From Alkalispirochaeta sp. (lineage in GTDB: Bacteria > Spirochaetota > Spirochaetia > DSM-27196 > Alkalispirochaetaceae): 64,000 bases of DNA. Location of the stretch: the NCBI GenBank assembly GCA_965242725.1, contig CBDESZ010000026.1, positions 64,001 to 128,000 on the forward strand, written 5' to 3'. Both the position numbers and the translations under genes were made by a program. The notes under the pieces are model-generated. The model was not told where the DNA came from. It searched no databases and saw nothing but the letters and a program-made list of their open reading frames with translations. Below, piece after piece: positions 1 to 21,117 of the stretch. Numbering within the stretch: the first letter of the stretch is position 1; each line of letters begins with the position of its first letter.

Positions 1-2
1 TG

Positions 3-3248: not shown

Positions 3249-3263
3249 TGGTGTCGTATCTCA

Positions 3264-3296
3264 TCGCCGTTCATCCCTAAAAAGTCGCCGTTCGTC
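3264..3296 (+). promoter_or_regulatory. LytTR-type direct-repeat operator upstream of dctP
   Basis: TCGCCGTTCATC (3264-3275) and TCGCCGTTCGTC (3285-3296), 21-bp period; AlgR-like CCGTTCGTC core. Confidence 0.75.
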
Positions 3297-3367
3297 TCTT
3301 TTTTGTTGCGGCCCTCCCATTTCCGGCGGATTATACCGTCACACAACCATTAAGGAGGGTTTCAGAA

Positions 3368-4399: not shown

Positions 4400-4421
4400 G
4401 AGTCGGATCGCATATTGAAGC

Positions 4422-4453
4422 GGCCCGTCGACCTCGTCGACGGGCCCCTTTTT
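4422..4453 (+). terminator. Rho-independent terminator/stabilising hairpin between dctP and dctQ
   Basis: GGCCCGTCGAC-ctc-GTCGACGGGCC followed by a T5 tract. Confidence 0.75.
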
Positions 4454-4516
4454 ATGCTCCCGCATTGGCGTCCGACCATTGCGCCTTTTTATATCTATAG
4501 TATATTGGGAGTTACT

Positions 4517-5125: not shown

Positions 5126-5131
5126 ACCGGC

Positions 5132-6409
5132 ATGCTGTGGCTATTTCTCGGAACACTCTTCGGCTTCATCGCCCTGGGTATACCCGTCGTATTCGCACTC
5201 ACCCTTTCCAACATCGCCCTGATCATGGCGCTGGACGTACCGTTTACCGTAATCGGAAACCGCCTCGCCTCGGGAATCAACAGTTTCCCCCTCCTGGCGA
5301 TACCGTTTTTCATGTTTGTCGGTGAAGTGATGAACAGGGGAGGCATCGCACGACGCCTTGTGGAACTTGCCGACGCCATCGTCGGACATATCACCGGCGG
5401 TCTGGGCCATGTAAACATCATGGCCAGCATGTTCTTCGGCGGAATCAGCGGATCGGCAATAGCCGACACCGCCGCAATCGGAGGACTGCTCATACCCCCG
5501 ATGGTACAGCAGAAATATCCCTCGCCGTACGCTGCGGCAGTTACCGCCTCGTCGGCGGTGATCGGTATCATCATTCCGCCGAGCATTCCCTTCATCCTCT
5601 ACGGCATCATCACCAATACATCCATTGCACGCATGTTTCTGGGGGGAATCATTCCCGGCATCATCGTCGGTGTCGCCCTGATGATCACCACCTATTTCAC
5701 GAGCAAGAAGCATGGATATGGTGTCGCCGCCGATGGACAGCGCTTCTCCTGGCATCGCCTCTGGAGAGCCTTCACCAACGTATGGCCCGCATTGAGTATC
5801 CCCTTCATCGTCGTCGGTGGAATCCTTCTGGGCGTATTTACCGCGACGGAAGCGGGAGCGATCGCCGCAGCGGCGTCTCTCCTGATGGGGCTCTTCCTCT
5901 ACAAGGAAATAAAGATATCGGATCTCCCGAAAATCCTGATCAATACCGCCAAGACGACGGGTGTCGTCCTTTTCCTCTGCGGAATGGCGATGGTGACGGC
6001 GTGGCTCCTGACGCGGGCACGGGTGCCCTTTGCCCTGGCGGATCTTCTCACGGGATTTTCCTCGTCACCTCTGGCGGTGCTGCTCATGGTGAACGTTCTG
6101 CTCTTCGCCGTCGGTTTCGTCATGGACCTCACCCCGGCGATGCTCATTCTCGCGCCGATACTCCTGCCCGTCATGGAAGCGGTGGGAATCGACCCGGTCT
6201 ACTTCGGCGTCATCATGTCCATCAACCTGGGAATCGGTCTGATCACACCGCCGGTGGGGACGGTGCTCTACGTGGCGTGCGGCGTGGCAAACATCAAACT
6301 GGAACAGCTTGTGCGCTCCCTCACGCCCTTTCTCGTCACTCTTCTCGCGGTGCTGGTGCTTCTCATCGCCTTCCCGCAGCTGGTAATGTTTATTCCAAAC
6401 TTGATGTAG
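5132..6409 (+). CDS. dctM: TRAP transporter large permease
   Basis: FPLLAIPFF, GGISGSAIADTAAIG, IIPPSIPFI, GLITPPVG. Confidence 0.95.
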   Translation: MLWLFLGTLFGFIALGIPVVFALTLSNIALIMALDVPFTVIGNRLASGINSFPLLAIPFFMFVGEVMNRGGIARRLVELADAIVGHITGGLGHVNIMASMFFGGISGSAIADTAAIGGLLIPPMVQQKYPSPYAAAVTASSAVIGIIIPPSIPFILYGIITNTSIARMFLGGIIPGIIVGVALMITTYFTSKKHGYGVAADGQRFSWHRLWRAFTNVWPALSIPFIVVGGILLGVFTATEAGAIAAAASLLMGLFLYKEIKISDLPKILINTAKTTGVVLFLCGMAMVTAWLLTRARVPFALADLLTGFSSSPLAVLLMVNVLLFAVGFVMDLTPAMLILAPILLPVMEAVGIDPVYFGVIMSINLGIGLITPPVGTVLYVACGVANIKLEQLVRSLTPFLVTLLAVLVLLIAFPQLVMFIPNLM

Positions 6410-6432
6410 CGATCACCTCCATCCGGAAGTGC

Positions 6433-6465
6433 AGGGCGGTCCCCACGGGGAGCGCCCTTTTTTTT
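6433..6465 (+). terminator. Rho-independent terminator after dctM
   Basis: AGGGCGgTCCCC-ac-GGGGAgCGCCCT followed by a T tract. Confidence 0.8.
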
Positions 6466-6542
6466 GATTTTTCTGACCTCGAAGGCGCCGCCGCGCCATC
6501 GCGCCGCGCCGCCGTCATCGTCGACACGGTCGGCCGGCAGCC

Positions 6543-7325
6543 CTATACGGTTGCCTTGGTCGCTCCCGTGGAAATGCCGCCGTCAATGAGGAGCGTCTGC
6601 CCCGTCATGTAGGCACTCCCGTCGGAGGCGAGAAAAACGACCGCCCCGTCCAGATCGTCGGGCTTGCCGGGACGCTTCAGGGGAATGCGGTCGTTGAGAT
6701 AGGTGAGCCACTCCCTGTTTTCGTAAAGCACCTTGTTCTGTTCCGTCCGGAACCAACCGGGAGCGAGGCAGTTCACGGTGATGCCGTGGGGCCCCCAGTC
6801 GTCGGCAAGGCTCATGGTCATCTGTTTGACGCCGCCGCGGCTCGCGCAGTAGGGGGTGATGCCGGCGTACCCAAAGACGCTGGTCACCGACCCGATATTG
6901 ATGATGCGGCCGTAGCCCCGGGGAATCATCGTCTTTGCCACCTCCCGGGCGACAAAAAAGGAACCCCGCAGATTGGTGTCCAGAATGGTGTTCCAGTCAT
7001 CCCAGGTCACCTCTGTCGCGGGTTTGCGGATATTGAGGCCCGCGTTGTTCACGAGAATGTCGATCTTCCCGTAATGGTCCATCGCATCGGCGACCATGCG
7101 GACGATGCTCTCCTCGTCGCGGACATCAAGCTCGAGGGGGAGCGCGCGCCGCCCCATGCTCTCAATCTCCCGGACAAAATCCCCGAGGGCGTCGCGCCTC
7201 CTGCTCGTTACCACAAGATCCGCTCCCGCCCGCGCCAGGGCACGGCCAAAATACTGTCCCAGCCCTCTGCTGGCGCCGGTCACCACGGCAACCTTGCCGG
7301 TCAGGTCAAAAAGTTCAGTGCTCAT
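6543..7325 (-). CDS. SDR oxidoreductase, gluconate 5-dehydrogenase/KduD-like
   Basis: TGASRGLG, NNAG, YCASRGG (YxxxK variant), VNCLAPGWFRT. Confidence 0.88.
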   Translation of the reverse strand: MSTELFDLTGKVAVVTGASRGLGQYFGRALARAGADLVVTSRRRDALGDFVREIESMGRRALPLELDVRDEESIVRMVADAMDHYGKIDILVNNAGLNIRKPATEVTWDDWNTILDTNLRGSFFVAREVAKTMIPRGYGRIINIGSVTSVFGYAGITPYCASRGGVKQMTMSLADDWGPHGITVNCLAPGWFRTEQNKVLYENREWLTYLNDRIPLKRPGKPDDLDGAVVFLASDGSAYMTGQTLLIDGGISTGATKATV

Positions 7326-7374
7326 ATCGTTCCTCCTTTTTTTGGGGGCGGCCCCTACGCGGGTCGTCGCGCGC

Positions 7375-7416
7375 CGCCCCCTACTCGTCGCCCCCTACGC
7401 GTCGCCCCCTACGCGT
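7375..7416. repeat. 14-bp tandem repeat x3
   Basis: CGCCCCCTAC(T/G)CGT at 7375, 7389 and 7403; partial copy at 7351. Confidence 0.85.
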
Positions 7417-8521
7417 CGGGCCGCAGAATGACCTTCATCAGGCCCTCTTTATTGTCATAGAGGCGCCGAAACCACTCGGCTCCCTCCGCCAGAGGCGCCT
7501 CGGCGCTCACCAGCGGGTCCAGCGCCACCGTGCCGGAGCGAATCAGCTCCAGGCACGCCGGATACTCCCCGGACGACGCGTTGGAACCCTTCACGGTAAT
7601 CTGTCGCGTCACCACAAGCTGCAGCGGCATCTCGACGGCGGCGGCAAAGTTGCCGATGATCGTCACCGCCCCGCCGCGCCGGACGGAGGTCACCGCCGTA
7701 TCGAAGGACTTCTGAATACCCACCACATCAAAGGCGTTGCGCACGCCCCGTCCCGCGCTCTCCCGGGCGACGACGGCGGACACATCATCCCGCACCGGAT
7801 TCACCACAGCCGACGCGCCCAGGGACGTTGCCAGCTCCAGCCTGCGATCGTCCAGGTCCACGGCGATAATGCGACCGTAGCCGCTCGCCCGCAGGACCTG
7901 AATCAGAAGAAGGCCGATCATCCCGGCTCCCACCACCACCGCCGAATCGCCCACATCATGGGGAGTGATACGCGCGGCGTGGACGGCGATCGACAGGGGC
8001 TCCACCATCGCGGCGTGTCGGTAGCTCACATCGTCGGGGAGGGGATAGACGCCCCGGGCGGGCACGGCGACGTACTCCGCAAAGGCGCCGTCCTGCCGGT
8101 ACTCATCGCAGCTCACGCCGAGAACGCGGCGGTTCTCGCAGAAATTGATCTCCCCCCGGCGGCAGTAAAAGCACTCCCCGCAGTAGAGGGTGGAGTCAAA
8201 GGTGACCCGCATGCCCGGCCGCAGCGCCGCTGCCCCGTCGTCGGACTGCGCCCTGTAGCCAGCTGCCGCCCCGTCGTCGGACTTTGACCCGCTTCCGCCG
8301 CCCGCGCGGGACCCGACCTTCACGATGTCGCCCGCCGCTTCGTGGCCCATAATGACCGGCGGAATCCGTCGTCCCGTACTGCCGTCAATGCCGTGAATGT
8401 CGCTCCCGCAGATCCCCACGGCCTTCACCGCGACGAGGACCTCGTCCTCACCGATCTCGGGGACCGGGGCGTCCTCAATGTATTCCAAATGATTGTATGC
8501 AACGAGTTTAAGGGCTTTCAC
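7409..8521 (-). CDS. Zn-dependent polyol/sugar dehydrogenase (MDR family)
   Basis: GICGSD, MGHEAAG, CGECFYCRRGEINFC, GAGMIG; GTG start at 8521 behind GAAGGAG. Confidence 0.9.
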   Translation of the reverse strand: MKALKLVAYNHLEYIEDAPVPEIGEDEVLVAVKAVGICGSDIHGIDGSTGRRIPPVIMGHEAAGDIVKVGSRAGGGSGSKSDDGAAAGYRAQSDDGAAALRPGMRVTFDSTLYCGECFYCRRGEINFCENRRVLGVSCDEYRQDGAFAEYVAVPARGVYPLPDDVSYRHAAMVEPLSIAVHAARITPHDVGDSAVVVGAGMIGLLLIQVLRASGYGRIIAVDLDDRRLELATSLGASAVVNPVRDDVSAVVARESAGRGVRNAFDVVGIQKSFDTAVTSVRRGGAVTIIGNFAAAVEMPLQLVVTRQITVKGSNASSGEYPACLELIRSGTVALDPLVSAEAPLAEGAEWFRRLYDNKEGLMKVILRPDA

Positions 8522-8867
8522 GCCGACTCCTTCTGATTCGAAATATGGCTGACCTGCCGCCCCGATTCTGCCATGAAAACCCGCCGCCGCCAAGCAACAG
8601 CCCCCGGCACTTCAGGCTGTCCAATCTATATTTCTATTTTGAACTTGCGTTCTGCCGGGACTCCACTTCCGCCCACCGCCCAAGCCCGGATCGGGGGGCG
8701 GCGAAGGGCAATATCGAGCCGCCGCCTCACCACCGCCCCGCCGCCGCCCCAAACGGGCATACGAAAAACATAATAATATTAGTAATAAATAAAATAGGAA
8801 AAAACATGATATTATATACATACATCACAGATGAGCTCTCCGACACAATCTGTTCAAGGAGGGAAGA

Positions 8868-9626
8868 ATGAAAACATCAATCCTGCACATCACGCTGATA
8901 CTCGCGCTGATCGCCGTCGTGGTTCCGGCCAATGTAGTTGCCCAGGCCCCCGCGCAAGCCCGGTCCCCGGCCCTGGAACGGCCGCCTGCCGACCACTGGA
9001 GCACCCGCATCGCCGCCCCCGGCTATGGCTTCAGCTTCACCTCCGTCGAGGTCGAATACGGTGAAGACGACGAAACGGAAGTATACCTCATGCCCGGCAT
9101 CGACCTGCGCCACTTCAACGGCATCAACGTTACCGAATCGGGGCACTTCTACTTCGGATATGAAGTGGGCGTTGCCGCCAACTTCCTTGTCGGCAGCGGA
9201 TCGACAATGGACATCGTCGGGGAAGAATACGAGCTCAACAGCGCCATGGTCGCTACGCTCCTCCTCATGGGAAAACACGGTTACCACCGGGACATCGGCT
9301 CACCCGACAAGGGCCTCGGCTTCGGCGTGGAACTCGGTCTTGGCATCATGGGCGGCGCCGGCGACATCGAAATCGAAAACACCGACGGCGATACCTTCAG
9401 TCACACCACGGAGATCATCGGACCAGTCTTTGAAGCCGCCGGCGAGTTCTCGATACGCACGGACCGCGACCTGCGCCTCGTCTGCCGCCTCGGCCTCATG
9501 GCCGGCGCTCCTCTCATCGAGACGGACGATGGCGATACCGGCGTCGACTACTTCTCCGCCGCATCCGCCCCGGTCCGCGTCTCCCTGCGCTTCGGATTTG
9601 TCAGAGATTACGGCTGGGAGTACTGA
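8868..9626 (+). CDS. Hypothetical exported protein, possibly an outer-membrane beta-barrel
   Basis: AGGAGG SD, signal peptide, alternating hydrophobic beta-strand pattern, aromatic C-terminus. Confidence 0.65.
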   Translation: MKTSILHITLILALIAVVVPANVVAQAPAQARSPALERPPADHWSTRIAAPGYGFSFTSVEVEYGEDDETEVYLMPGIDLRHFNGINVTESGHFYFGYEVGVAANFLVGSGSTMDIVGEEYELNSAMVATLLLMGKHGYHRDIGSPDKGLGFGVELGLGIMGGAGDIEIENTDGDTFSHTTEIIGPVFEAAGEFSIRTDRDLRLVCRLGLMAGAPLIETDDGDTGVDYFSAASAPVRVSLRFGFVRDYGWEY

Positions 9627-9666
9627 AAAGAGCCATCGGCAGTACAACGATCATTATTCAGAGAAA

Positions 9667-9696
9667 TGCGGAATTTTTGTAATGCAGAATTACGCA
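9667..9696. promoter_or_regulatory. Putative antitoxin operator
   Basis: Inverted repeat TGCGGAATT...AATTACGCA plus direct repeat AATGC(G/A)GAATT upstream of the AbrB gene. Confidence 0.5.
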
Positions 9697-9708
9697 TATT
9701 CTTCAGAT

Positions 9709-9942
9709 ATGAAAGTAACTCTTACCGTTACCGACAGGGGTTCGGTGACCCTCCCTGCGAGAATGCAGAAAGAGATGGGAATCGGAGCGGACTCGCTGCA
9801 TATCGCCGAGTCAACGGAAGAGGGAATACTCCTTCGGCCTGCCGTAGCCCTTCCGGTAGAGGTTTACACCCGGGATCGTCTCGAGGAGTTTGCGGCCGCA
9901 GAACGTGCCGTGGATGAATGGTACGGTGAGTCATCGCAGTAA
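9709..9942 (+). CDS. AbrB/MazE/SpoVT-family antitoxin
   Basis: MKVTLTVTDRGSVTLPARMQKEMGI...EEGILLRPA swapped-hairpin signature. Confidence 0.85.
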   Translation: MKVTLTVTDRGSVTLPARMQKEMGIGADSLHIAESTEEGILLRPAVALPVEVYTRDRLEEFAAAERAVDEWYGESSQ

Positions 9943-9945
9943 GTG

Positions 9946-10011
9946 ATGCGAATATTCGTGGATGCAAACATCCTTTTTTCCGCCGCATATGCCGACCTTC
10001 GTGCTATCTGA
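9946..10011 (+). pseudogene. Truncated PIN-domain toxin (N-terminal 21 aa only)
   Basis: MRIFVDANILFSAAYADLRAI*: first PIN strand/helix directly after the antitoxin, then stop. Confidence 0.75.
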
Positions 10012-10476
10012 CCTTTGTGACCCCCATTCCCCTGGGAAGAGCCGGAAAAATGACGTCTTTTGTTCCATACCGGACTTCCGGCGGGTACCAGACATAGCAG
10101 GGTTTTCCATCGTGGCCGGGATCGATAAGGATCATCAGCAGCTCGGGATAGGTGATCATCTTGGAAAATGGTCCCGTCTCGCCCCGGTTCAAGATGTGTA
10201 TGGCATCCTCTTCCGATGTATGTTCCGGGAACTCCGTGCGGCCGTAAAAAGCGGCGACGTAGCGGACGGCGGCATACCGGGGAAATCTCGGCCTGGCCGC
10301 CTCGCGTTCAAAAAACTCCCGGTCCGCTTCAAGACACGTTTCAAACTCGTCCCATTTCACACCGATCGTTTCTGGATATTCCGCTGAATCCTGCCACCCA
10401 TTCCGACGTAAACCTGCCACCTTGGGAGGGTTTGCAACCTCGCGTCAGCCAGCATAGGGTGCCGGCAGGTTTGGCG

Positions 10477-11211
10477 TCAATCTGAAGTGCTCTTTCGGCG
10501 TCTACTCGCTCCTTTTAGTTCAAATATCCATGGTGTATGGGCAAGGCGATCCATGATCGCGTCGGCGATAGTTGGCTCTCCGATGATTTCGTGCCACGCG
10601 CCAATCGGCACCTGGCCGGTGATGATCGTACCGGCTTTGTTATACCGGTCGTCGAGTATCTCGAGAAGGGAGAGGCGGTCATCGGCGTTCAACGGGCTGA
10701 GTCCGAAGTCGTCGATGATGAGTAATCCGGTTTTGGCAAATCGCCTGATCTCGTCGAAGTAGCTCCCGTCGGCGCGCGCAAGCCGGAGCGTCGGAAACAA
10801 TTTGGTTGCCCGCACGTAGCGCGTAGATATCCCCCGGAGACACGCTTCATGACCGAAAGCACAAGCGAGGTAGCTTTTCCCGGCGCCGGTCGGTCCGGTA
10901 ATGAGCATGGTCTCGCCACGCTCAACCCATTCCATTGTGGAGAGATTGCTCACGGTATCCCGGTCGAGATTGCGTTCCGGGCTGAACTCAATGGCATCGA
11001 TCGCCGCGGGGATACGTAGACCGGCCTGACGGAGCAGCCGTTCGGTCTTTCGTGTTTTTCTGAGATTCAATTCCGCCTCGGCCATCTGGGCAACGAGCTC
11101 ACCGGTGGTCGGGGCACTATTCGGCCCAAGACGGGCCGAGGCTTCGTATACGTCGGCCATTGCAGAAAGTTTCAGCGTCCGCAGCGTTTCAACGGTTTGT
11201 AGACGGTTCAT
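10477..11211 (-). CDS. istB: IS21 helper ATPase
   Basis: GPTGAGKS Walker A, LLIIDDFG Walker B, IADAIMDRL, LKGASRR. Confidence 0.95.
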   Translation of the reverse strand: MNRLQTVETLRTLKLSAMADVYEASARLGPNSAPTTGELVAQMAEAELNLRKTRKTERLLRQAGLRIPAAIDAIEFSPERNLDRDTVSNLSTMEWVERGETMLITGPTGAGKSYLACAFGHEACLRGISTRYVRATKLFPTLRLARADGSYFDEIRRFAKTGLLIIDDFGLSPLNADDRLSLLEILDDRYNKAGTIITGQVPIGAWHEIIGEPTIADAIMDRLAHTPWIFELKGASRRRKSTSD

Positions 11212-12797
11212 ACGTGCACTCCGTGGCGTTGGTAGGAGGCACGACCGCGAATATTGCTGTGAGGAGGAATTGAGCGGTCTGATTCGTCGGGTTCACCTGC
11301 CGATGTATCGAGTCCACGCTCAAGAATCCGTTTTAGATTCTTATAGGTCGGTACGCCGATCGTATTAGCGAAGCGACACGCCGCCTCGAGACGAGTGCGA
11401 GAATACGTCTTGGGAAGATTGAGGATACCCAGGCAGCTTTTGAATGCCTGTTGCGGCACCTCCCGGGCATCGAGCACCGCCTGAATGCACCGTTCTGTTT
11501 CCGGCCCGATATCCGCCGCCCACGAAAGGAGCCTGTCCGGACCCAACTCGTCGTGGAAGCGGTGTTCCGGTGTCATATGGTCGCGATTGGTCGTGTACTG
11601 ATGCGCTCCCGTTTCGCGACGGTGAAATGCGATCCTCACGTTCTTGTGGTAAATCTCTATCTCTCGGTGGGTATAGGAGATACGCACTTTCAGTCCGCGA
11701 TAATCGGCAGGAACGCTATAGTAGTGTTTATCCACCGGGAAGAAGACGTGGTAATTCTTTTGCACGGTGATCGGGCTGGTATAGAGCCGGACCTCATATG
11801 GTTCGGCAGGCAACGGACGAAGGCACTCCTTCTCGATCGCATCAAACCGTTCTTTCCGGCTGATGCCGACTTTCTGCATCGCTCGATCATTCAGACCGTC
11901 CAGGTTCTCCCACATCGCCGTGTTCAACTCGTCAACGGTGGTAAACGTTCGGTTCCGCAGCGGTGCAAGAATGCGCGTGTAGACCAGTCGTACCGCAGCT
12001 TCCACCAACGCTTTATCTCTCGGTTTCTTGACGCGCGCCGGCACAACGGCGCATCCGTAGTAGTGGCTGAAGACATCAAACGAAAAATTGATTCCCGGCT
12101 CGTATCGACTTGGTGTATCCACCGCCGCTTTCAGATTGTCGGGGACGAGGATTTTGGGAGCGCCTCCGGCATATTCCATCGCGTGGGTGGTGCAGCGAAT
12201 GGTGTGTTCGGTGTCCTGCGATATCGTCGCCTCGGTGTAAATCAATCCGCCTGAGGGAAACACCGCCACATACAGTTCCACAGGGATATGAATCCCCGTT
12301 TTCGGATCGACGATGAACGGACGGTCTCCGGCATAGTCGAGAAACATCTTTTCCCCCGGCTCGTGATGGAGGTGCATCGATAGTTCCGAGTCCTCCGTGT
12401 ACATCCGCATGTGCTGACAGAACTGGGAATACTGATACCCCTCGGGGTGCTCGGCGATGTATTCTTCCCACAAAATCTGTCGGGTCACCACGCCCATACG
12501 GTCGCGGCGTCGCCCCAGCTCGTTGACCATTCCCGGCATCAGATTCATCAGAACTTCGTATCGTGGATCATGACGCCGTGTTTCGCTATCCCGCAAACGC
12601 TCGAGCAACTCATCGTCGCTCATCGTCTCCACATCCGCCCATTTCAGTCCGGCATTTTCTGCCTGTTTGAGATACTCCGTCACCACCGGCCGGGATACGG
12701 CCAGTGCGCGGCTGATCTTCCGGATGGATAATCCGGAAGACTCGTTCAACCGAATGATTTCTCGTATTTTACTCATGCTGATCCTCGCTTTCGGCAT
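11208..12797 (-). CDS. istA: IS21 transposase
   Basis: N-terminal HTH, GEKMFLDYAG, VPDNLKAAV, PRDKALVE; start ATG 12797 behind GAGGAGG. Confidence 0.95.
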   Translation of the reverse strand: MPKARISMSKIREIIRLNESSGLSIRKISRALAVSRPVVTEYLKQAENAGLKWADVETMSDDELLERLRDSETRRHDPRYEVLMNLMPGMVNELGRRRDRMGVVTRQILWEEYIAEHPEGYQYSQFCQHMRMYTEDSELSMHLHHEPGEKMFLDYAGDRPFIVDPKTGIHIPVELYVAVFPSGGLIYTEATISQDTEHTIRCTTHAMEYAGGAPKILVPDNLKAAVDTPSRYEPGINFSFDVFSHYYGCAVVPARVKKPRDKALVEAAVRLVYTRILAPLRNRTFTTVDELNTAMWENLDGLNDRAMQKVGISRKERFDAIEKECLRPLPAEPYEVRLYTSPITVQKNYHVFFPVDKHYYSVPADYRGLKVRISYTHREIEIYHKNVRIAFHRRETGAHQYTTNRDHMTPEHRFHDELGPDRLLSWAADIGPETERCIQAVLDAREVPQQAFKSCLGILNLPKTYSRTRLEAACRFANTIGVPTYKNLKRILERGLDTSAGEPDESDRSIPPHSNIRGRASYQRHGVHV

Positions 12798-12905
12798 TCG
12801 GTTCCTCCTCATCAATCACGATGACGAGATCCAACGTTTCTTGCGAGGATGCAAATCTCCATTCCGATACAAACCTGCCACCCGTTACGATGACCGCCGA
12901 AAATT

Positions 12906-12982
12906 GGCAGGTTTACGTCGGAATACCCGGCAGGTTTAGCCCGGAATGGGTGGCAGGTTTAAATCGTAACAGCCGGCAGGTT
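12906..12982. repeat. IS21 subterminal transposase-binding repeats
   Basis: GGCAGGTT(T) at 12906, 12929, 12952 and 12975 (23-bp period); inverted copies near 10390-10420. Confidence 0.85.
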
Positions 12983-13242
12983 CGGGGCGTAATTTCCAGT
13001 TTCGAGGTAGGGGAGGGGGATGCGCTTGTCCATCGCGTCATAGCGACGTCGCTGATGGTCGAGTCGTCGTGCAAAATTGGGTCGTTCCGTATCGTAGCCG
13101 AGGGCTCTCCCGATCGTTCGACGTGCATCAGGTCCGGTAAAACTTTTACTTTTCCAGGCGACATATCGTTTGGTATAGAAAAACCGTTCGTATCCCGGCG
13201 TCCGATTGTCTTTCGGTACAAAGGTGTCAAAGAAGTTCGCCT

Positions 13243-13398
13243 TCATGCTTCTGTATCCCGGAAAAAGTCCCTGCCGAGTTTTTCCCGGAGTTCCCGAGTA
13301 TCAATATCCATGAGGGCACGGATTCCTTTAATGACCTGCCGTGCGTATGCCGATCCGGCATCAATTGTTTCTTTGAATAACTGCTTTTCCGTCTGCAT
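13243..13398 (-). CDS. 51-aa hypothetical protein (below the ORF-track size cutoff)
   Basis: AGGAGGAG SD; MQTEKQLFKETIDAGSAYARQVIKGIRALMDIDTRELREKLGRDFFRDTEA*; ATGA overlap with the 203-aa gene. Confidence 0.75.
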   Translation of the reverse strand: MQTEKQLFKETIDAGSAYARQVIKGIRALMDIDTRELREKLGRDFFRDTEA

Positions 13399-13480
13399 AG
13401 ACTGCTCCTCCTGTATAGGTGATCCGAGCAGTGCGTACGGTGTACAGGCAGAAACTTCCGGCAGGCAGTGAATACCTTCT

Positions 13481-13595
13481 CACATCGTTCCGGGACGCGC
13501 TGTCATATGCGTCTCCAGTCGGCTGTGGCACCTTGCCGTGGAGGCAGGTTGCCGGGCGATCTCAGGGCCGTTTCCCTCACGCCACTCGTGATGTT
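13481..13595 (-). ncRNA. SAM-I (S-box) riboswitch aptamer
   Basis: ACAUC-ACGAG-UGGCG-UGAGGGA-AAC-GGCCC-UGAGA-UCGCC-CGGCAACC-(UGCC/GGCA stem)-AGGUGCC...GGAAC-GAUGU matches the S-box landmarks AUCnnGAG, GAGGGA, GGCCC, GCAACC, GGUGC, GAnnGAU; P1 = ACAUC/GAUGU. Confidence 0.85.
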
Positions 13596-13601
13596 GGGTA
13601 A

Positions 13602-13630
13602 AACCTATCAGATATGGCATCGCCTGTCAA
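13602..13630 (-). promoter_or_regulatory. sigma70 promoter of the riboswitch leader
   Basis: TTGACA-17 nt-TAGGTT with TGn extension; predicted start near 13595, at the 5' end of P1. Confidence 0.7.
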
Positions 13631-13700
13631 TAGTATGGAAATTTGAGTGGGATAACGAAATAAATAGAGATAATGATAAATTTAATTGGCCGGCGATTCA

Positions 13701-14693
13701 CTACCGGTACCGCCCCGCCGTCTCCTGAAAACACTTCTTTGCCCGCTCCCGAAGTTCCGGCGGCTCCAGGACTTCCGCATTGGGACCCCACTGGGAGACC
13801 CAGAAAAGCACCTGCGACTGCTGGTTGGTGCGGAAACGGACGATAATGCCGCCGTCGGGGAGGCGTTCCACTTTCTGATCGTGGTGCCAGCGTCGCTCGG
13901 GGATTTTGGTGGCCGCCTCGCCGTCAAACCTGACGGCGATATCCACGGCGCCCTCGTTGACGAAGACGCCGAATGACGGGTCGATGTAGCTTTCCACAGA
14001 GAACCCGTCGGGACGGGTGAAGGTCTCCTTGCGAAGACGGGCTTGTTTGATCCGGTAGAGGGCGTAGATCCGTACCTCCTCGTGGTGGTGGGACCAGCAC
14101 AGCAGGTACCATTCACCGCGATGACCGACGAGATGCAGGGGATCAATGACGCGGATCGCCGTCTTGTCGTGCGCCGGTGCCTGGTAGTGGATTGCGATGG
14201 TGCGCTGTTTGTAGAGACCCTCCCGGACGACCGACCACACCTTCTTGTCGATCCCGGTGACGGGGTCGGAAATCACCGAGACGTGGGCGACGAGATCCTC
14301 GGAGCTGACGGTGACGTTGTCCGGAAGGAGGGTAGCGAGGCGCTTGTAGACGGACCTGAGTTGTTCATACCAGGGGCTGTTGCGATAGCCTTCCAGGGCG
14401 CGGTCGCCAACCATCAATGCCATCAGATCGCCCTCGGTGAGGTCCAGCGCCGGCAACTGCCAGGACATATCGCCGTAGTAGAAGCCTTTTTGGTGCCTGT
14501 CGAACTCAATGGGGGCGCCCCGGTCCCTCATCTTCTCGATGTCCCGCTGGATGGTACGGGTGGTGACCTCTTCAATGTTTTCATCGGACAGACCGCGAAC
14601 GATGTCCGCAGCGGAAGGGTAGTCCCGTTTGTTCCGAAGGCGTCCGTCGATATAGGCGATTCTGGTGGTGATGGCGCGGTAGCTCATAGGCAT
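13701..14693 (-). CDS. wHTH-WYL-WCX transcriptional regulator (YafY/PafBC/DriD-like)
   Basis: HTH (EVTTRTIQRDIEKMRD), IDPLHLV...GEWYLLCWS...RIYALYRI, C-terminal WGPNAEVLEPPELRE. Confidence 0.93.
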   Translation of the reverse strand: MPMSYRAITTRIAYIDGRLRNKRDYPSAADIVRGLSDENIEEVTTRTIQRDIEKMRDRGAPIEFDRHQKGFYYGDMSWQLPALDLTEGDLMALMVGDRALEGYRNSPWYEQLRSVYKRLATLLPDNVTVSSEDLVAHVSVISDPVTGIDKKVWSVVREGLYKQRTIAIHYQAPAHDKTAIRVIDPLHLVGHRGEWYLLCWSHHHEEVRIYALYRIKQARLRKETFTRPDGFSVESYIDPSFGVFVNEGAVDIAVRFDGEAATKIPERRWHHDQKVERLPDGGIIVRFRTNQQSQVLFWVSQWGPNAEVLEPPELRERAKKCFQETAGRYR

Positions 14694-14701
14694 AGTGTTG
14701 A

Positions 14702-14726
14702 ATATTTGAGCATCATTTTCAAATAT
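14702..14726. promoter_or_regulatory. Palindromic operator upstream of the WYL gene
   Basis: ATATTTGA-N9-TCAAATAT perfect inverted repeat 8 nt upstream of the start. Confidence 0.6.
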
Positions 14727-14763
14727 CTATAGTATTAGGCGGTCTGGACGGATATCTTGCGTC

Positions 14764-15162
14764 TCAGCCGGATCCGCGCAGCACTTCCAGAAAAACGCGT
14801 GGCGACACTACGAGCTTTTCGGGAGGAAAGTGTTTGTCGTTTCCCGTGACGAGATAATCGGCACCGCCCGAAATCGCCACCTCGTAGAATGGGATGTCGT
14901 CGGAATCAGGAACCACTTCCTTGGCGGGCGCGGCGGTAATGTAGGTGCTGTCGTATTCCAGGTACTCCAGGAGTGACTGGATGTAATCAACGGGAAAGTG
15001 AAACTTCGGACGTAGAAGAACTTTTCGATATTCGGATAGAATTCGATCGTCGACAAGGACGGTCACCGACTTGTTGAGTACGGCGTTGAGAATCGAGCCG
15101 GGTGCTCCATGTGGATTCAGAACTCCGGAAATCAGAACGTTGGTATCGAGAACAATGCGCAC
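14764..15162 (-). CDS. PIN-domain toxin (PIN_3 type)
   Basis: MRIVLDTNVLISG, PDSDDIPFYEVA...ADYLVTGNDKHF. Confidence 0.9.
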   Translation of the reverse strand: MRIVLDTNVLISGVLNPHGAPGSILNAVLNKSVTVLVDDRILSEYRKVLLRPKFHFPVDYIQSLLEYLEYDSTYITAAPAKEVVPDSDDIPFYEVAISGGADYLVTGNDKHFPPEKLVVSPRVFLEVLRGSG

Positions 15163-15446
15163 TAGGAACGCTCACGACGAACCGCGTCGATTTCGGCCTG
15201 TATCTCCGCTTCGGTCATTGTATCGAGCCCGTTCTCTTGGGCGGTTTTCCGCAACTGACGAAGCGCATTTGCCGCTCGGGCGCTGCGAACTGCAGACAGC
15301 GTTTCTTCAAGTGTCTCCCCTGAAAGTGGAGTGAGCAATGCGATCGGCTTTCCGTTGTTTGTGATCACCATCTCCTGCTCCGTCGGAAGCTGTTTCCAGA
15401 TTGCCGCCGGAGAGGTTCGGATGTCACGGACGGTGATGAACTTCAT
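15162..15446 (-). CDS. Phd/YefM-family antitoxin
   Basis: MKFITVRDIR...MVITNNGKPIALLTP; coupled to the PIN gene. Confidence 0.88.
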   Translation of the reverse strand: MKFITVRDIRTSPAAIWKQLPTEQEMVITNNGKPIALLTPLSGETLEETLSAVRSARAANALRQLRKTAQENGLDTMTEAEIQAEIDAVRRERS

Positions 15447-15501
15447 GTCTTTATAATCATTCTATTGTCACTTGATTGTCAACGATTCTTGTGCTCATAC
15501 G

Positions 15502-17814
15502 TTAAAACCCAATCCCCCGCGTCCGGTCCCGGCTCCGGGCGTTTGACAGGATCTCTCCAACGACGACGGCAGCCTGCACCGGGACTGCCGGCTCCTCCGT
15601 CAATGGCGTCTCGTCCCTCCCAATCTCCAGCATCTCCGCGGCCGTGGCGAGGTCGCTCATCATGAGGGGAGGCCCCTGCCCGAGGGCGGCGATATCGCCG
15701 TCGGTAAAGGTGACATCCGGAAAGATGTAGGCCAGTGCCGGGCGCAGCACATCTTCGTCGATGGCACCGAAGGTGACGTGCTTGTGGAATCGTCTGCGGA
15801 GGGCGGGGTCCACGGCGTCCACCCGGTTGGTGCAGGCGATGAGGATTCCGCTATACTCCTGGATCTACTGGAGGAACTCGGCGATTTGGGAGTGCTCCCA
15901 GGAGCGATGGGCGATGGACCGATCGTAGAGGAGGGCGTCTGCCTCGTCGATGATAAGGACCGAGCCGGCACGGGCGGCGGTGCGGAATGCCGCTGCGATC
16001 TGCTCTTCCGACTCTCCCACATATTTTGAGAGCAGGTCCGACGGGCGCTTGAGCAGGACGTCCCGGCCCAGGCGCTTTGCGAGCCACAGGGCGTACTGCG
16101 TCTTGCCGCCGCCGGGAGGCCCGCCAAAAAGGAGGCGCAATCCCTGTCCGGCCTGCGCGCGATGCGACGCCTGGCGTTCAACTCGATCCAGAGATTCCGA
16201 AGTGGAACAGAATCGGGGGTCGAAGGAGCGGGCGACCGTCGGCAGGCGGCGGACGTCACGGGCGAGGGCGCCGGTGGAGATCCGGTCGATGTAGCCGGAG
16301 ACGCGCCGGTGTACGTCGGCGGGACTGAGGTGCCCGGTGTTCAGTTCCGCGGCGATGATCCGGGCGGTACGGTCGATGGCGGCAGGGGTGATGTCGTATC
16401 GTGCGGCGATGTCGTGGAGCAAGGGGGCGATCCCGGCCGGATCGTGAACGAGGGGTGAGAGGCGTTCCGTGAGCATCCGGACTCTCGTGTCGATGGCGGG
16501 GCGGGGAAAGGCGAGGACGTGACCGAAGCGGCGCATGGCGGAGGTGGGAATCATGCGGTGGTCGTTGGTGATCCAGACGGTGGCCACCGGAAGGTGCTCG
16601 AGCAGGTCGTTGAGGACTCCCTTGTCGTAGCTCCCGCCGTCCAGACCGCCCCCCAAGAGGCCGAAGAAGGCGGCGGCGCTCTGGAGAATGGAGTCGGCTT
16701 CATCGATGATGAGGACGTCCGTGGCGGGGGAAAGCAGATTGGCTGCCATTCGGATTGCATTGAAGCGGCTCCCTTCCGCTTCGGCGCGACGTGGTCCATG
16801 GGAGTATTCGGACCGGCGGTTTTGCGCCGCGAGGGTGTGACCGGTGAGACCGAGGGAGTGGATGAGAGCGCGGGCAAACTCGGTCTTGCCGATCCCCGGC
16901 TCTCCGGCGATAAGCAGGGGGTAGACGCCGCGGACCGCTGCGGCGCAGGTGCGTATTTCGTCGGCGGGCAGCGGGAACTCGTCGAGCGGGAACCGCGGGG
17001 AGGGTGTGTCGTCAAAGAGCCCGGCCGTGAGGTCATCGAGGGTGTCGGATCGGAGTGCGAAAAGAAGGGGACGGCTGACGTTGATATCGAAAATTTCGTC
17101 GCGACCGCCCCGGAAGGCGATGAGACCGAGACGCTCCAGGGGGGAACCGGGGGCGGTCTCCCGGACAAAGGCGGGAACGTCGGTGTCGGCGGCGTCTGCA
17201 ATGATCGACATCTGGGTGCGATGGGTTGCCTGATGCATGAGGCCGGCCATCGGTTCGATATCCTCGAGGGTGTACAGTGCCATGAGAATCCGGATGTCGA
17301 GGGGCGACAGGGTGAAGATGCGGGCAATCTCTTCGACGATCGGCGGGAAGGGAGGGAAGGGCGGGACGGACTCCGCGCCGGCGCTGCTTTCTTTTGCGTC
17401 TATGTCGTCTTTGTTGTCGGCGTGGTCGTTCCGGTCGACCTGGTAGACCAGGTCGGCGATGAGATCCACGACGATGGGGTGGATCGTCTCGTTGTTGCGA
17501 CCGATGCGGTAACAGATTTGCCGCAGGCGGCGCGGGGACGCGTGCGGGGCCTCCAACTCGCTGACCGCGTCCGGCGGCAGTCTGAGGAGTTCTTTCTGCT
17601 CCAGTATGCGGGCGATGAGGGTGTGAAGTTCTTCCGGCTCGGAAACCGTAAGGGCAAACTGGACGAGGTCGTCCGATGGCGAGAGGTGTTCAGCGCATAT
17701 GCGAAAGACGTAGCGGTGGTACGCCTTCCAGTGCGTGTCTATCGGTCTCTGAAGGCGTGAGCGGCCTCCGCGCTTCCGGGTGAGGTGTTCATGGTGTCGT
17801 TGTTGTGGCGTCAT
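15502..17814 (-). pseudogene. Double-AAA+ ATPase (770 codons) with in-frame TAG at 15865-15867
   Basis: Walker A GEPGIGKT and GPPGGGKT, two IIDEAD Walker B; frame continues after the TAG as IQEYSGILIACTNRVDAVDPALRRRF...RGIGF. Confidence 0.85.
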
Positions 17815-17821
17815 GTACAGG

Positions 17822-17855
17822 AAGGTAGCCGGTGGTCCGCGACTTAGAGTGTCGC
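17822..17855 (-). promoter_or_regulatory. Palindromic box plus -10, leaderless promoter of the AAA ATPase
   Basis: GCGACACTCTAAGTCGC-N11-TACCTT-N7-ATG; no SD, no -35. Confidence 0.7.
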
Positions 17856-17939
17856 CGGGACTGACTGTTACGTTTTTTGCAAAAGACCACGTTTCTGCCG
17901 GGTTGCACGTTGACTGGTTTGGGCCCGCCCACTTCGCCG

Positions 17940-18464
17940 TTACCGCCCGCCCGACGGTCCTCGCTTCAGAAACTCCCGCTGCGCCGGCGTCTCGGGAAGA
18001 GAGCCGACCCCCGCGATCTCCCGCGAGGCGACCGGGTAATCATAGCCGAGGGACATGAGGACGGCGACGGCAAACATTCCCGTCCGGCCGATGCCGGCGG
18101 CGCAGTGAATGAAGACCCGCTCTCCGTTGTCGATCAGCTCCGCAACGTGACGGGCGGTATTCCAGAAGCGCCCCGCAGCGAAGAGGGCGGGCGCCTGGAG
18201 GTCGTCTATCGGGAGGTCTATCAGCGTGACCCGGCTCTTCCCGGTACCGTCCGCCTGACGGTGCCGGCGCCGTTCCCGCCACACCCGGTACTGCGGACTC
18301 TCTGCCGCGATCTGCTCTTCCGGTGCGAGGCAGACCACCGTACCGATGCGGTGCTCCTCCATCTCACGGAGCCACCGGGAAAAATTTCCCGCGAGGCGCC
18401 CCGCAAATTTGCGCCCGGGCATCGCGTCCAGATACAGCCTGTTTTTCCACGTTCTCATGCTCAT
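17940..18464 (-). CDS. Dual-specificity/tyrosine phosphatase-like protein (CX5R)
   Basis: LPIDDLQAP acid loop, FIHCAAGIGRTG P-loop, PETPAQREF; start set at 18464 from promoter geometry. Confidence 0.88.
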   Translation of the reverse strand: MSMRTWKNRLYLDAMPGRKFAGRLAGNFSRWLREMEEHRIGTVVCLAPEEQIAAESPQYRVWRERRRHRQADGTGKSRVTLIDLPIDDLQAPALFAAGRFWNTARHVAELIDNGERVFIHCAAGIGRTGMFAVAVLMSLGYDYPVASREIAGVGSLPETPAQREFLKRGPSGGR

Positions 18465-18471
18465 GCTATGG

Positions 18472-18507
18472 ATACTATTGTACCGTGGGCGACAGGGAGT
18501 GTCGTAT
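18472..18507 (-). promoter_or_regulatory. Palindromic box plus -10, leaderless promoter of the phosphatase
   Basis: ATACGACACTCCCTGTCGC-N11-TAGTAT-N7-ATG, same geometry as at 17822-17855. Confidence 0.72.
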
Positions 18508-18618
18508 GTTCGAGGCACGCCACGATACCGTTTTACCAATGCAAAACATATTAGTTGTTTTCTGGTGCATAGAGGATAATATAATATATGTGGGCATATA
18601 ATTATAATGGAGGCGACG

Positions 18619-18849
18619 ATGGCACAGGTGACGATTTATCTTGATGAAGCTCATGAAAGGCGGCTTCGGAAGGCGGCGGAGGATGCGGGGATGCCGGTGA
18701 GCCGGTGGGTTGCGGCTCTCATTGAACGGTATACTCGGACCGAGTGGCCTGCTGAAGTGCGTGACGCCGCCGGATCGTGGCCGGATGCCCCTGATGCAGT
18801 ATCATTGCGAAATCCGTCCGGCCGGGATGTGCCGAGAGAGTCGCTATGA
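18619..18849 (+). CDS. CopG/RHH antitoxin (VapB-like)
   Basis: GGAGG SD; MAQVTIYLDE...AAEDAGMPVSRWVA; ATGA overlap with vapC. Confidence 0.85.
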   Translation: MAQVTIYLDEAHERRLRKAAEDAGMPVSRWVAALIERYTRTEWPAEVRDAAGSWPDAPDAVSLRNPSGRDVPRESL

Positions 18850-19250
18850 CCTACGTTCTCGATACCAATACGCTCATATATTTTTTCAAGGGCCAGGGCG
18901 GCGTGGCGGATACGCTCCTGAGTACTCCGCCTGCGGAGGTTGCAGTGCCGGCAATCGTGGTGTACGAGTTGGAGACGGGAATCCGTAAGTCGTCACACCC
19001 GGAGAAGCGGACGCGGCAATTAAGCTCCCTTCTCGATGCCGCCCGGGTGCTGCCGTTTGATAGGGCGTGCGCGACCGAGGCGGCGCGGGTGCGGGCGGAG
19101 CTCGAGGCATCCGGAACACCGGTCGGTCCCGTGGACGTACTCATTGCCGGTACGGTGATAGCCTGTGACGGCGTACTGGTTACCCACAATGCGGACGAGT
19201 TTAGACGAATCTCCGGATTGCGCATCGTCGATTGGTACCGAATGACCTGA
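18846..19250 (+). CDS. vapC: VapC PIN-domain toxin
   Basis: YVLDTNTLI, YELETG, GPVDVLIAG, LVTHNADEFRRISGL...DW. Confidence 0.92.
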   Translation: MTYVLDTNTLIYFFKGQGGVADTLLSTPPAEVAVPAIVVYELETGIRKSSHPEKRTRQLSSLLDAARVLPFDRACATEAARVRAELEASGTPVGPVDVLIAGTVIACDGVLVTHNADEFRRISGLRIVDWYRMT

Positions 19251-20300: not shown

Positions 20301-20657
20301 ATGGATGCGAGGGAGACGTTGCGGCAGTTTTACCGGGACCGGGCGACCCGGAAGCGGGAGGATGTCCGGGAACGACGGGAGCGATTTGAGGCGCTTCTTC
20401 CGCATATTGTTGACGGTATTCTGGAACGCGACCCGGAGGTCTCCCGGATCATCCTCTTTGGATCCCTTGCGGAACGGAACGAAGGCGTCGTCAGGGATAT
20501 CGATATCGCCGTCGAAAGCACCGACTTTCTCAAGGTGAGCGGGTGGCTCTTGAGTCTGTCTGAACCTGTTGATGTCGTCGACTTGAACGATCTCTATCCC
20601 CATATCCGGGAGCGGGCGGAATCGAAGGGCAGGGTCCTGTATGAACGACGAGACTGA
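20301..20657 (+). CDS. Minimal nucleotidyltransferase (MNT) antitoxin
   Basis: IILFGSLAE...RDIDIAVE...VDVVDL. Confidence 0.88.
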   Translation: MDARETLRQFYRDRATRKREDVRERRERFEALLPHIVDGILERDPEVSRIILFGSLAERNEGVVRDIDIAVESTDFLKVSGWLLSLSEPVDVVDLNDLYPHIRERAESKGRVLYERRD

Positions 20658-21117
20658 TCGCGCACTGCTGATAGCGGAGCTGGAAGGTGATCTGGCGGCG
20701 CTTCCGGAACTCCTGGCGAGCAATCACAAAAGTATGGAGCGAATCGGTGCGGGAGCAACGGACGATCTGGATTATGCAGCTCTCGGATACACTCTTCATA
20801 ATCTGTACAACCTGATCGAAAATTCCTTTTTTCGTATAGCAAAGCATTTTGAAAATGAACTCGGCAGTGAAGGATGGCACAAGGAGCTTCTGCATCGGAT
20901 GACCCTTTTCATCGAGGGAATCCGCCCGCGGGTAATCGACCGGCCGACGGCGGAACAGATTGATGAACTGAGAGCCTTTCGCTACGTTTTTCGGAATATG
21001 TATCGAAAAAGCCTTGATCCGGAGAAGCTGCTCCTCCTTCAGAAACGGCTGCCGGATATCGTGGATGCCTGGAGACGGGCAATACAGGATTTCATTGACC
21101 TCCTGAAGACCCTTTGA
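20641..21117 (+). CDS. HEPN-domain (HepT-like) toxin
   Basis: LHNLYNLIE..F.RIA, WHKELLHRM, LRAFRYVFRNMY; overlaps the MNT gene. Confidence 0.85.
   Translation: MNDETDRALLIAELEGDLAALPELLASNHKSMERIGAGATDDLDYAALGYTLHNLYNLIENSFFRIAKHFENELGSEGWHKELLHRMTLFIEGIRPRVIDRPTAEQIDELRAFRYVFRNMYRKSLDPEKLLLLQKRLPDIVDAWRRAIQDFIDLLKTL

What the first reader, a model, noticed from the sequence alone, without database searches (positions are those of the whole stretch)
17812..18507. Two leaderless promoters with the same CGAC-N7-GTCG box and identical spacing: candidate WYL-activated regulon
Seen on the minus strand: GCGACACTCTAAGTCGC-N11-TACCTT-N7-ATG (AAA ATPase) and ATACGACACTCCCTGTCGC-N11-TAGTAT-N7-ATG (phosphatase). 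They share CGACACTC...GTCGC and lack both -35 and SD. Known: the Caulobacter WYL activator DriD binds ATACGAC-N7-GTCGTAT, and mycobacterial PafBC activates promoters with a TGTCGG element about 10 nt before the -10; both respond to nucleic-acid damage signals. Inference: the WYL protein at 13701-14693 activates a phosphatase plus double-AAA ATPase stress or anti-phage module. I know of no such regulon described in spirochetes.
Basis: partly seen in the sequence, partly recalled or inferred. Interest (0 to 1): 0.82.

Follow-up and report, generated by a model that had tools for sequence, protein, structure and literature searches.

The report
WYL activator boxes in spirochete promoters
Two neighbouring genes in this alkali-lake-type spirochete carry the same short DNA palindrome at a fixed distance from their start, and relatives keep it in front of the same genes; it is likely the docking site from which the nearby WYL regulator switches on a phosphatase and a double-ring ATPase (broken in this genome), probably when it senses single-stranded DNA, as known DNA-damage activators do.

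Summary
Confirmed. Both minus-strand promoters read CGACAC-N5-GTCG, 12 nt, TANNNT, 7 nt, ATG, and they are the only such sites in the 4.3-Mb genome. The box sits upstream of 19 of 21 orthologous ATPase genes and 12 of 21 phosphatase homologs. The refined consensus is (C/T)GACA-N5-TGTC(G/A), the motif class of DdaA and DriD.

The neighbouring wHTH-WYL-WCX protein keeps DriD's base-reading arginines. Where relatives carry Lys at the helix position that reads base 1, the box begins with G (6 of 6 sites, against 0 of 15 with Gln/Glu). That is one phylogenetic contrast. Binding, activation and start sites are untested.

The regulon is local: recA and lexA have no box. The Cdc48-like ATPase here is cut by a TAG stop. 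Distant ATPase homologs on plasmids sit beside WYL genes in 9 of 12 loci examined.

This is a new member of a known kind. My paper searches found no spirochete case or WYL-ATPase module, but this scan noted such modules on other DNA before.

The parts
18490..18504 (-). Box A, 15-bp imperfect palindrome CGACACTCCCTGTCG (predicted WYL operator, about -40 to -26 if the ATG is +1)
   Evidence: same box upstream of close phosphatase orthologs
18472..18477 (-). -10-like hexamer TAGTAT, 12 nt after box A, 7 nt before ATG
   Evidence: TANNNT at the same spacing in orthologs
17940..18464 (-). Dual-specificity/PTP-fold phosphatase, 174 aa, intact HCxxGxGRT loop; predicted leaderless
   Evidence: Pfam Tc-R-P 2.8e-10, PTP-SAK 4.7e-7; PDB PTP hits; alignment A2
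17840..17854 (-). Box B, CGACACTCTAAGTCG (predicted WYL operator)
   Evidence: box upstream of 19 of 21 ATPase orthologs
17822..17827 (-). -10-like hexamer TACCTT, 12 nt after box B, 7 nt before ATG
15865..17814 (-). Tandem (type II, Cdc48/Rix7-like) AAA+ ATPase, residues 1-649, ending at a premature TAG in the second ring
   Evidence: model of an intact ortholog matches Rix7/Cdc48/p97; 10 of 10 homolog loci read Gln at this codon; same letters in contigs of runs X1, X2, X4, all one sample
15502..15864 (-). Remainder of the ATPase frame after the stop (120 codons: second Arg-finger region and RGIGF tail)
   Evidence: contiguous with the ATPase in homologs
14764..15446 (-). Phd/YefM antitoxin plus PIN toxin pair between ATPase and WYL gene, with its own TTGACA/-10-like promoter and no box
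   Evidence: also beside the WYL gene in L221 and near it in L052
13701..14693 (-). wHTH-WYL-WCX regulator, 330 aa; recognition helix R46-T-I-Q49-R50; no box upstream of its own gene

Best explanation
The two 15-bp palindromes are likely the binding sites of the neighbouring wHTH-WYL-WCX protein, which is predicted to act as a DriD/DdaA-type activator that would recruit the housekeeping RNA polymerase to promoters with a -10 but no -35, probably after sensing single-stranded DNA. SHOWN: the sites, their fixed 12-nt spacing to TANNNT, their conservation upstream of orthologs, their physical linkage to orthologs of this WYL gene, and the matching change of box base 1 with helix residue 49. INFERRED from DriD and DdaA: a dimer binds through R46 and R50 over the -35 position and recruits polymerase; transcription starts at or next to the ATG (leaderless mRNA); the signal is ssDNA from DNA damage or incoming DNA. 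INFERRED more weakly: the output is a local conflict or stress kit for mobile-DNA islands, with a Cdc48-like ATPase that unfolds or extracts proteins and a small phosphatase as its core. In this genome only the phosphatase arm is intact.
For: Uniqueness of the architecture in the genome. Pattern search in 61 related genomes: 24 matches (22 outside the own genome) against 2 for the reversed pattern. Footprints: box upstream of 19 of 21 ATPase orthologs with upstream sequence, own included, 18 of the 19 with an in-frame start 6-7 nt after the -10; 12 of 21 distinct phosphatase loci. Held-out loci: 8 sites in 4 of 8 loci against 0 in the reversed control, and 8 of 8 with ATG at 6-7 nt. WYL orthologs sit beside the ATPase and/or phosphatase in 11 of 20 regions fetched. 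Covariation: the Lys clade (98/97 support) has G at box base 1 in 6 of 6 ATPase/phosphatase promoters; genomes with a Gln/Glu-helix ortholog (Gln/Glu clade 99/97; G006, G016 and G055 are not in the tree) have C or T in 15 of 15. DriD Glu40 reads base C1, and E40K cuts binding 83-fold (PMC10853764 passages). DriD sites overlap the absent -35 at a fixed distance from the -10 (PMC13004042 passages). DdaA binds CGACAATATGTGTCG through R47/R51 and senses through Y173/Y200 (PMC13010146 passages); R46, R50, Y170 and Y196 here are conserved.
Against: No binding, transcript or start-site data exist. The helix-box covariation is one contrast between two clades. Boxed ATPase genes occur in G002, G004, G054 (no ortholog found with this query; 94, 78, 91% complete), G005 (fragment only) and G020 (only a 37%-identical Lys-helix WYL found, yet a C-type box). 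Another WYL protein of this genome (C4:161808) also has an RTIQRD helix. Of 11 DriD ssDNA-contact positions, 4 differ here (S172, R176, K202, R207 read A174, A179, E206, A211; mapped by eye). Nine of 21 phosphatase loci lack the box. Outside the order the pattern is at background: 57 matches against 81 control in 187 genomes. The ATPase here is truncated, so the local module may be decaying.
Confidence: 0.8

Rival explanations
1. The same WYL protein binds the boxes as a repressor (BrxR/CapW style), blocking the -35 region until ssDNA releases it.
For: The box covers the -35 position. WYL repressors of defence islands exist (PMC11662680 search listing; PMC13004042 passage). The targets lie in defence-like islands.
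Against: There is no -35 to occlude. Spacing to the -10 is fixed at 12 nt, as activation would need. The motif and base-reading residues match the activators DriD and DdaA. No box precedes the WYL gene here.
Confidence: 0.08
2. The boxes are read by a different factor, such as another WYL protein of this genome or an alternative sigma factor, and the neighbouring WYL gene is a bystander.
For: Three further WYL proteins are encoded, one with the same RTIQRD helix. Four genomes hold boxed ATPase genes without a detected ortholog, and a fifth has only a fragment.
Against: No exact G(A/T)CA-N5-TG(A/T)C core lies within about 4-5 kb of the other three WYL genes. Box base 1 follows the helix of this WYL clade. 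Boxes directly follow the ortholog's stop codon in several genomes. A palindrome suits a homodimer rather than a sigma factor.
Confidence: 0.08
3. The two promoters are copies of one ancestral stretch or chance matches, with no current function.
For: The bare palindrome is at chance frequency, and the ATPase gene is broken.
Against: The spacers and -10 interiors differ between the two sites while box and distances are fixed. The same holds across genera, orders of genes and unrelated target genes.
Confidence: 0.02

Closest known systems
DdaA of Acinetobacter/Moraxellaceae (PMC12392091, PMC13010146)
   Same: wHTH-WYL-WCX architecture; motif CGWCA-N5-TGWCG fits box A exactly and box B with one mismatch; two helix arginines and two WYL tyrosines at matching positions; first beta4/beta5 Arg replaced by Ala (A211 here), as the paper states for DdaA; the paper says pre-Moraxellaceae DdaA putatively regulated nearby genes of unknown function.
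   Different: DdaA runs a global damage regulon (recA, ssb, uvrA, Cas, RM) in place of LexA, with the motif about 50 bp upstream of the TSS. Here LexA is present, recA and lexA have no box, the regulon is two genes in this genome, and the box would span about -40 to -26. I could not obtain the DdaA sequence, so orthology is untested.
DriD of Caulobacter crescentus (PMC9186387, PMC10853764, PMC13004042; PDB 8tp8, 9pfq)
   Same: CGAC-N7-GTCG core with AT-rich centre; R-x-x-(E/Q)-R recognition helix; site over an absent -35 at a fixed distance from the -10 (11 or 12 nt by my reading of the printed promoters; the figure that fixes it could not be seen); no self-activation.
   Different: Only the WYL/WCX part aligns (E 1.8e-10). 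DriD targets are didA, bapE, recJ and dnaG. R207, R176, K202 and S172 are not kept. Most targets here are predicted leaderless.
PafBC and SiwR of mycobacteria (PMC6789036, PMC10693628)
   Same: Class A WYL activators; SiwR is a homodimer controlling adjacent genes through a palindrome upstream of the -10.
   Different: PafBC is a heterodimer on a non-palindromic -26 element. SiwR's targets are DinB-like. Neither motif was matched here.
Type II AAA+ ATPases Cdc48/p97, Rix7/NVL, Drg1, VAT
   Same: Two AAA+ rings with intact Walker A/B and Arg fingers in intact orthologs; best fold matches (Foldseek E 8.6e-17 to Rix7; VIA-align Z 18.9, rmsd 4.5, 239 aligned to CDC48).
   Different: 18-23% identity; a helical N-terminal region of about 240 aa with no fold match obtained; a conserved C-terminal (I/V/L/M)GF tail. 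Below the IetA/IteA cut-off (93.7 against 510 bits).

Membership tests
Class A WYL regulators (wHTH-WYL-WCX) | N-terminal HTH, WYL and WCX domains in one protein | tested here: met
   WYL 6.6e-17 and WCX 2.8e-16 over cut-off; HTH_11 1.4e-4, under cut-off; class definition from PMC6789036 passages
DriD/DdaA-type activators | Target palindrome CGAC-N7-GTCG / CGWCA-N5-TGWCG | tested here: met
   against motifs
DriD/DdaA-type activators | Base-reading helix residues (DriD R37, E40, R41; DdaA R47, R51) | tested here: met
   R46, Q49, R50; R50 invariant and R46 in 18 of 19; placed by motif, since HMMER did not align the HTH to DriD
DriD/DdaA-type activators | Site over the absent -35 at a fixed distance from the -10 | tested here: met
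   12 nt in both sites and in orthologs; -10 assigned from conservation, not from a mapped start
DriD/DdaA-type activators | ssDNA-binding residues of the WYL domain | tested here: inconclusive
   7 of 11 DriD positions kept or conservative (Y170, R181, Y196, R208, Y210, F244, R288); 4 differ; A211 is the substitution stated for DdaA
DriD/DdaA-type activators | Binds the box and activates transcription after DNA damage | not testable with these tools
   needs EMSA, ChIP or reporter assays
DdaA clade (as defined by PSI-BLAST and tree in PMC12392091) | Groups with DdaA in a WYL tree | not tested
   no DdaA sequence came from any call; the supplement has no 'Spiroch', 'Treponema' or 'Sphaerochaeta' entry in its text; its tree figures could not be seen
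Global SOS-independent damage regulon (DdaA, DriD, PafBC) | Boxes upstream of core repair genes such as recA | tested here: not met
   best matrix scores near recA-like and lexA-like ORFs -7.4 and -4.8; only 2 strong sites in a 92% complete genome; lexA present
IetAS anti-phage system | ATPase over the IteA cut-off with an adjacent S8 protease | tested here: not met
   58.4 and 93.7 bits against cut-off 510; neighbours are a phosphatase and a TA pair
Leaderless transcripts | Transcription start at the A of ATG | not testable with these tools
   -10 to ATG distance of 6-7 nt fits; start sites need 5'-end mapping

The most novel reading that the evidence does not exclude
A cross-phylum, undescribed module in which an ssDNA-sensing WYL activator switches on a bacterial Cdc48/p97-like double-ring ATPase plus exchangeable nucleotide-repair or nuclease partners (phosphatase, ADP-ribosylglycohydrolase, Sir2, macro, RtcB, PD-(D/E)XK). 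The ATPase extracts or disassembles protein complexes during DNA damage or invasion, possibly docking on a protease through its conserved IGF-like tail. The spirochete branch shows a natural one-residue specificity code (Gln/Glu reads C, Lys reads G) that would let WYL regulons be predicted from sequence.
Probability: 0.3. Interest if true: 0.75.

Novelty: new member of a known kind. Interest (0 to 1): 0.5.

Why it matters
It extends DriD/DdaA-type activation to spirochetes and gives a testable picture of the local regulons from which, by the DdaA paper's account, global ones arose; that paper leaves the functions of such neighbouring genes open. The recurring target is an uncharacterised Cdc48-like ATPase, found in several phyla, with a WYL gene beside it in most loci examined, so the box says when that protein is made and points to a damage or invasion role. 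The natural Gln/Glu-to-Lys change with a matching C-to-G change in the box mirrors a DriD mutant and can be tested with one substitution. Orthologs are on record for cultured species (Alkalispirochaeta americana, A. sphaeroplastigenens, Spirochaeta africana).

Tried and rejected
The bare palindrome as evidence: rejected, it is at chance level. A class-wide pattern search gave no enrichment outside the order: 57 against 81 control in 187 genomes, and 17 against 3 in the 14 genomes of the order.

Expression: no RNA holder listed. The four runs laid are contigs of one sample and may be this DNA's source; they show only that the TAG is not peculiar to one assembly.

ATPase tail with two copies of this genome's ClpP: no answer, score 0.01, no verdict either way. 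The single-sequence model of the ATPase N-terminal region had pLDDT 45 and was not searched. The whole-model searches barely tested residues 1-242, so no fold is claimed for them.

A locus search with alignment A1 could not run for lack of conserved stretches; the single-protein searches gave 12 and 8 loci. NCBIfam gave no family for the WYL protein or the phosphatase; PADLOC gave generic WYL, Cas3c-fusion, IetA and TRIP13 partial hits only.

Paper searches that found no description of this system: WYL + spirochet + regulon + DNA damage, 0; WYL + AAA+ ATPase + ADP-ribosylglycohydrolase + conflict, 0; WYL domain + AAA ATPase + gene neighborhood + Sir2 + nuclease, 0; WYL + Cdc48 + bacterial + defense island, 1 listing on another system; WYL domain + Spirochaet, 7 listings, not read. 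Searches were uninformative. The library lacks most subscription papers.

Rows dropped before counts: L170 (no upstream sequence) and L188 (weak own-genome hit with 2 stops) from the ATPase footprint; duplicate loci L146/L156 and L158/L159 were merged in the phosphatase count. In one search three rows (G006 and G037 ATPase, G054 phosphatase) picked a neighbouring or divergent box; I used the sites for them.
Full report
OBSERVATION. Both elements are present as described. On the minus strand, box A (18504-18490) and box B (17854-17840) are each followed by 12 nt, a TANNNT hexamer, 7 nt and an ATG. The palindrome alone is common: 4 in the window against 3.54 expected and 208 in the genome. The whole architecture occurs twice in 4.34 Mb, both times here, and 0 of 2424 control palindromes with other spacers show it. 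A matrix built from 22 sites of other genomes ranks the two sites at 28.5 and 24.5 bits, with the next site at 16.5 and the reversed-genome maximum at 17.7. Those training sites were selected with a pattern taken from the window.

ANATOMY. Site A opens a 174-aa PTP-fold phosphatase with an intact HCAAGIGRT loop. Site B opens a tandem AAA+ ATPase with two Walker A/B pairs. A model of an intact ortholog (pLDDT 76.9, 6-row alignment) matches Rix7, Cdc48/p97, Drg1 and VAT. In this genome a TAG at 15867-15865 cuts off the last 120 codons; 10 of 10 homolog loci read Gln there, and contigs of three runs from one sample carry the same letters. A Phd-PIN pair follows, then the 330-aa HTH-WYL-WCX gene, which has no box of its own. 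Record titles of the closest WYL loci are mostly Alkalispirochaeta/Spirochaeta MAGs.

FOOTPRINTING. In 61 related genomes the pattern had 24 matches against 2 for the reversed control. Starting from the proteins instead of the motif, 19 of 21 ATPase orthologs with upstream sequence carry the box (own copy included), 18 of the 19 with an in-frame start 6-7 nt after the hexamer. Of the two without it, G023's ATPase directly follows a boxed upstream gene and G057's has none. Twelve of 21 distinct phosphatase loci carry it and nine do not. In 8 loci not used for training, 8 sites scored 17 bits or more (in 4 loci), none in the reversed control, and all 8 had ATG at 6-7 nt. The consensus is (C/T)GACA(C/T)T(C/T)T(A/G/T)TGTC(G/A)-N12-TANNNT. 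Some boxed genes have an SD and a 19-29 nt leader, and TANNNT at 6-8 nt before ATG is enriched genome-wide (132, 66 and 60 of 2975 ORFs against about 30 at other distances). Leaderless starts are therefore a habit of this genome, not a special feature of the regulon. Outside the order the pattern is at background.

WHICH REGULATOR. Orthologs of this WYL gene lie beside the ATPase and/or phosphatase in 11 of 20 regions fetched, often with a box just after the WYL stop. DriD reads its box with Arg37, Glu40 and Arg41; Glu40 contacts base C1 and E40K lowers binding 83-fold (PMC10853764, passages). The matching helix here is R46-T-I-Q49-R50. In a 30-protein tree the orthologs split into a Gln/Glu clade (99/97) and a Lys clade (98/97). 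ATPase and phosphatase promoters start with G in 6 of 6 sites of Lys-clade genomes and with C or T in 15 of 15 sites of genomes with a Gln/Glu-helix ortholog (G006, G016 and G055 were not in the tree, and G016 and G055 share one site sequence). G023, with Gly, shows mixed bases. This is one contrast between two clades, so it ties the box to this family but does not prove co-evolution. Against it: G020 has a C-type box with only a distant Lys-helix WYL found; G002, G004 and G054 have boxed ATPases and no ortholog with this query; G005 has a fragment. One other WYL of this genome shares the RTIQRD helix, but no exact box core lies near any of the three paralogs.

MECHANISM (inferred). DriD binds over the absent -35 at a fixed distance from the -10 and recruits polymerase (PMC13004042, passages). 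From the promoters printed there I count 11 or 12 nt from box to -10 (the deciding figure was not visible), against 12 here. DdaA binds CGWCA-N5-TGWCG, has Ala for the first beta4/beta5 Arg, and before its transfer to Moraxellaceae was a putative regulator of nearby genes of unknown function (PMC12392091, passages and supplement part 188). Its R47, R51, Y173 and Y200 (PMC13010146, passages) correspond in number and context to R46, R50, Y170 and Y196, and A211 sits at the Arg position. Seven of 11 DriD ssDNA-contact positions are kept (PMC9186387, passages; mapped by eye). I conclude that the protein most likely activates both promoters (0.8) and that ssDNA is the likely signal (about 0.65).

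SCOPE OF THE REGULON. It is local. LexA is encoded, and recA-like and lexA-like ORFs have no box. The complete genome G028 has 14 matches against 4 control, 9 at the conserved spacing and 6 of those within 70 kb. That region holds Mrr, MazG, Schlafen-helicase, HNH, SNF2, C5-methylase, PD-(D/E)XK and NYN genes and transposases (72 proteins scanned, 68 of them picked from the 162 listed ORFs or their neighbours and 4 from the window). Other boxed genes include NUDIX, DUF4240, DUF4236, SHOCT, DUF285 and a DnaB_C-like fragment; 15 of 21 had no Pfam match at 0.01.

BEYOND SPIROCHETES. The ATPase family spans several phyla. Of 129 plasmid records with a match I fetched 12 of the 25 listed. A WYL gene is annotated within 4-5 kb in 9 of 12, with partners such as ADP-ribosylglycohydrolase, Sir2, macro, a dual-specificity phosphatase, HEPN, RtcB and PD-(D/E)XK nucleases. 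A 9-10 of 10 match to CGACA-N5-TGTCG lies within 180 nt upstream in 5 of 12 (random windows of the same loci 1-2%), 8 of 10 in 4 more, and 7 or fewer in 3. The adjacent WYL proteins belong to different subfamilies (21-29% identity). An (I/V/L/M)GF motif stands near the C-terminus in 11 of 12 distant and 5 of 5 intact spirochete ATPases; its likeness to the ClpX IGF loop is recalled and only a lead.

KNOWN OR NEW. It works like DriD/DdaA and is a class A WYL regulator. DdaA-clade membership was not tested, and the global repair regulon of those systems is not met. Five searches found no paper on a spirochete WYL regulon or on the WYL-tandem ATPase pairing (listings only for the last two). SiwR (PMC10693628, passages and section 12) and the class definitions (PMC6789036, passages) were read for comparison. 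Earlier notes of this scan describe DriD-type boxes and WYL-ATPase pairs on other DNA; they are not independent support, and none matched this WYL sequence. Verdict: a real, conserved regulatory feature; new member of a known kind; interest 0.5.

Noticed in passing
window 15867-15865 (-): Premature TAG in the tandem AAA+ gene; 10 of 10 homolog loci read Gln. The promoter box is still intact, so the break looks recent.
   Followed up: yes
window 15502-15520 (-); L205-L217: The ATPase family ends in a conserved (I/V/L/M)GF motif (11 of 12 distant, 5 of 5 intact spirochete copies), reminiscent of protease-docking tails.
   Followed up: partly
window 13479-13597 (-): SAM-I riboswitch (RF00162, 55.8 bits) directly after the WYL gene, ahead of small orphan ORFs and an IS21 element; already noted by this scan (e1-8431982).
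   Followed up: partly
window 14764-15446, 18607-19250, 20301-21117: Three TA-like pairs (Phd-PIN, small antitoxin-PIN, nucleotidyltransferase-HepT) and an IS21 (10477-12815) around the locus, marking a mobile or defence-type island.
   Followed up: partly
L052 (G006:C14) 1-17000: At least nine boxes within 12 kb, with two WYL copies (one split) and ATPase fragments; boxed promoters seem to be duplicated with short gene fragments.
   Followed up: partly
L208:5965-5997 (Treponema saccharophilum plasmid pTS2): A 34%-identical WYL with a Gln helix is followed by TGACA-N5-TGTCA, 12 nt, TAGAAT in front of two dynamin-family genes: same geometry, different targets.
   Followed up: no
whole genome G000: TANNNT is enriched 6-8 nt before the first ATG of long ORFs, suggesting that many genes of this spirochete are leaderless.
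   Followed up: partly
L029:1181 (G052) and L030:2277 (G058): More distant WYL genes (about 26% identity) also have GAC-N7-GTC boxes nearby, with TANNNT at 11 rather than 12 nt.
   Followed up: no
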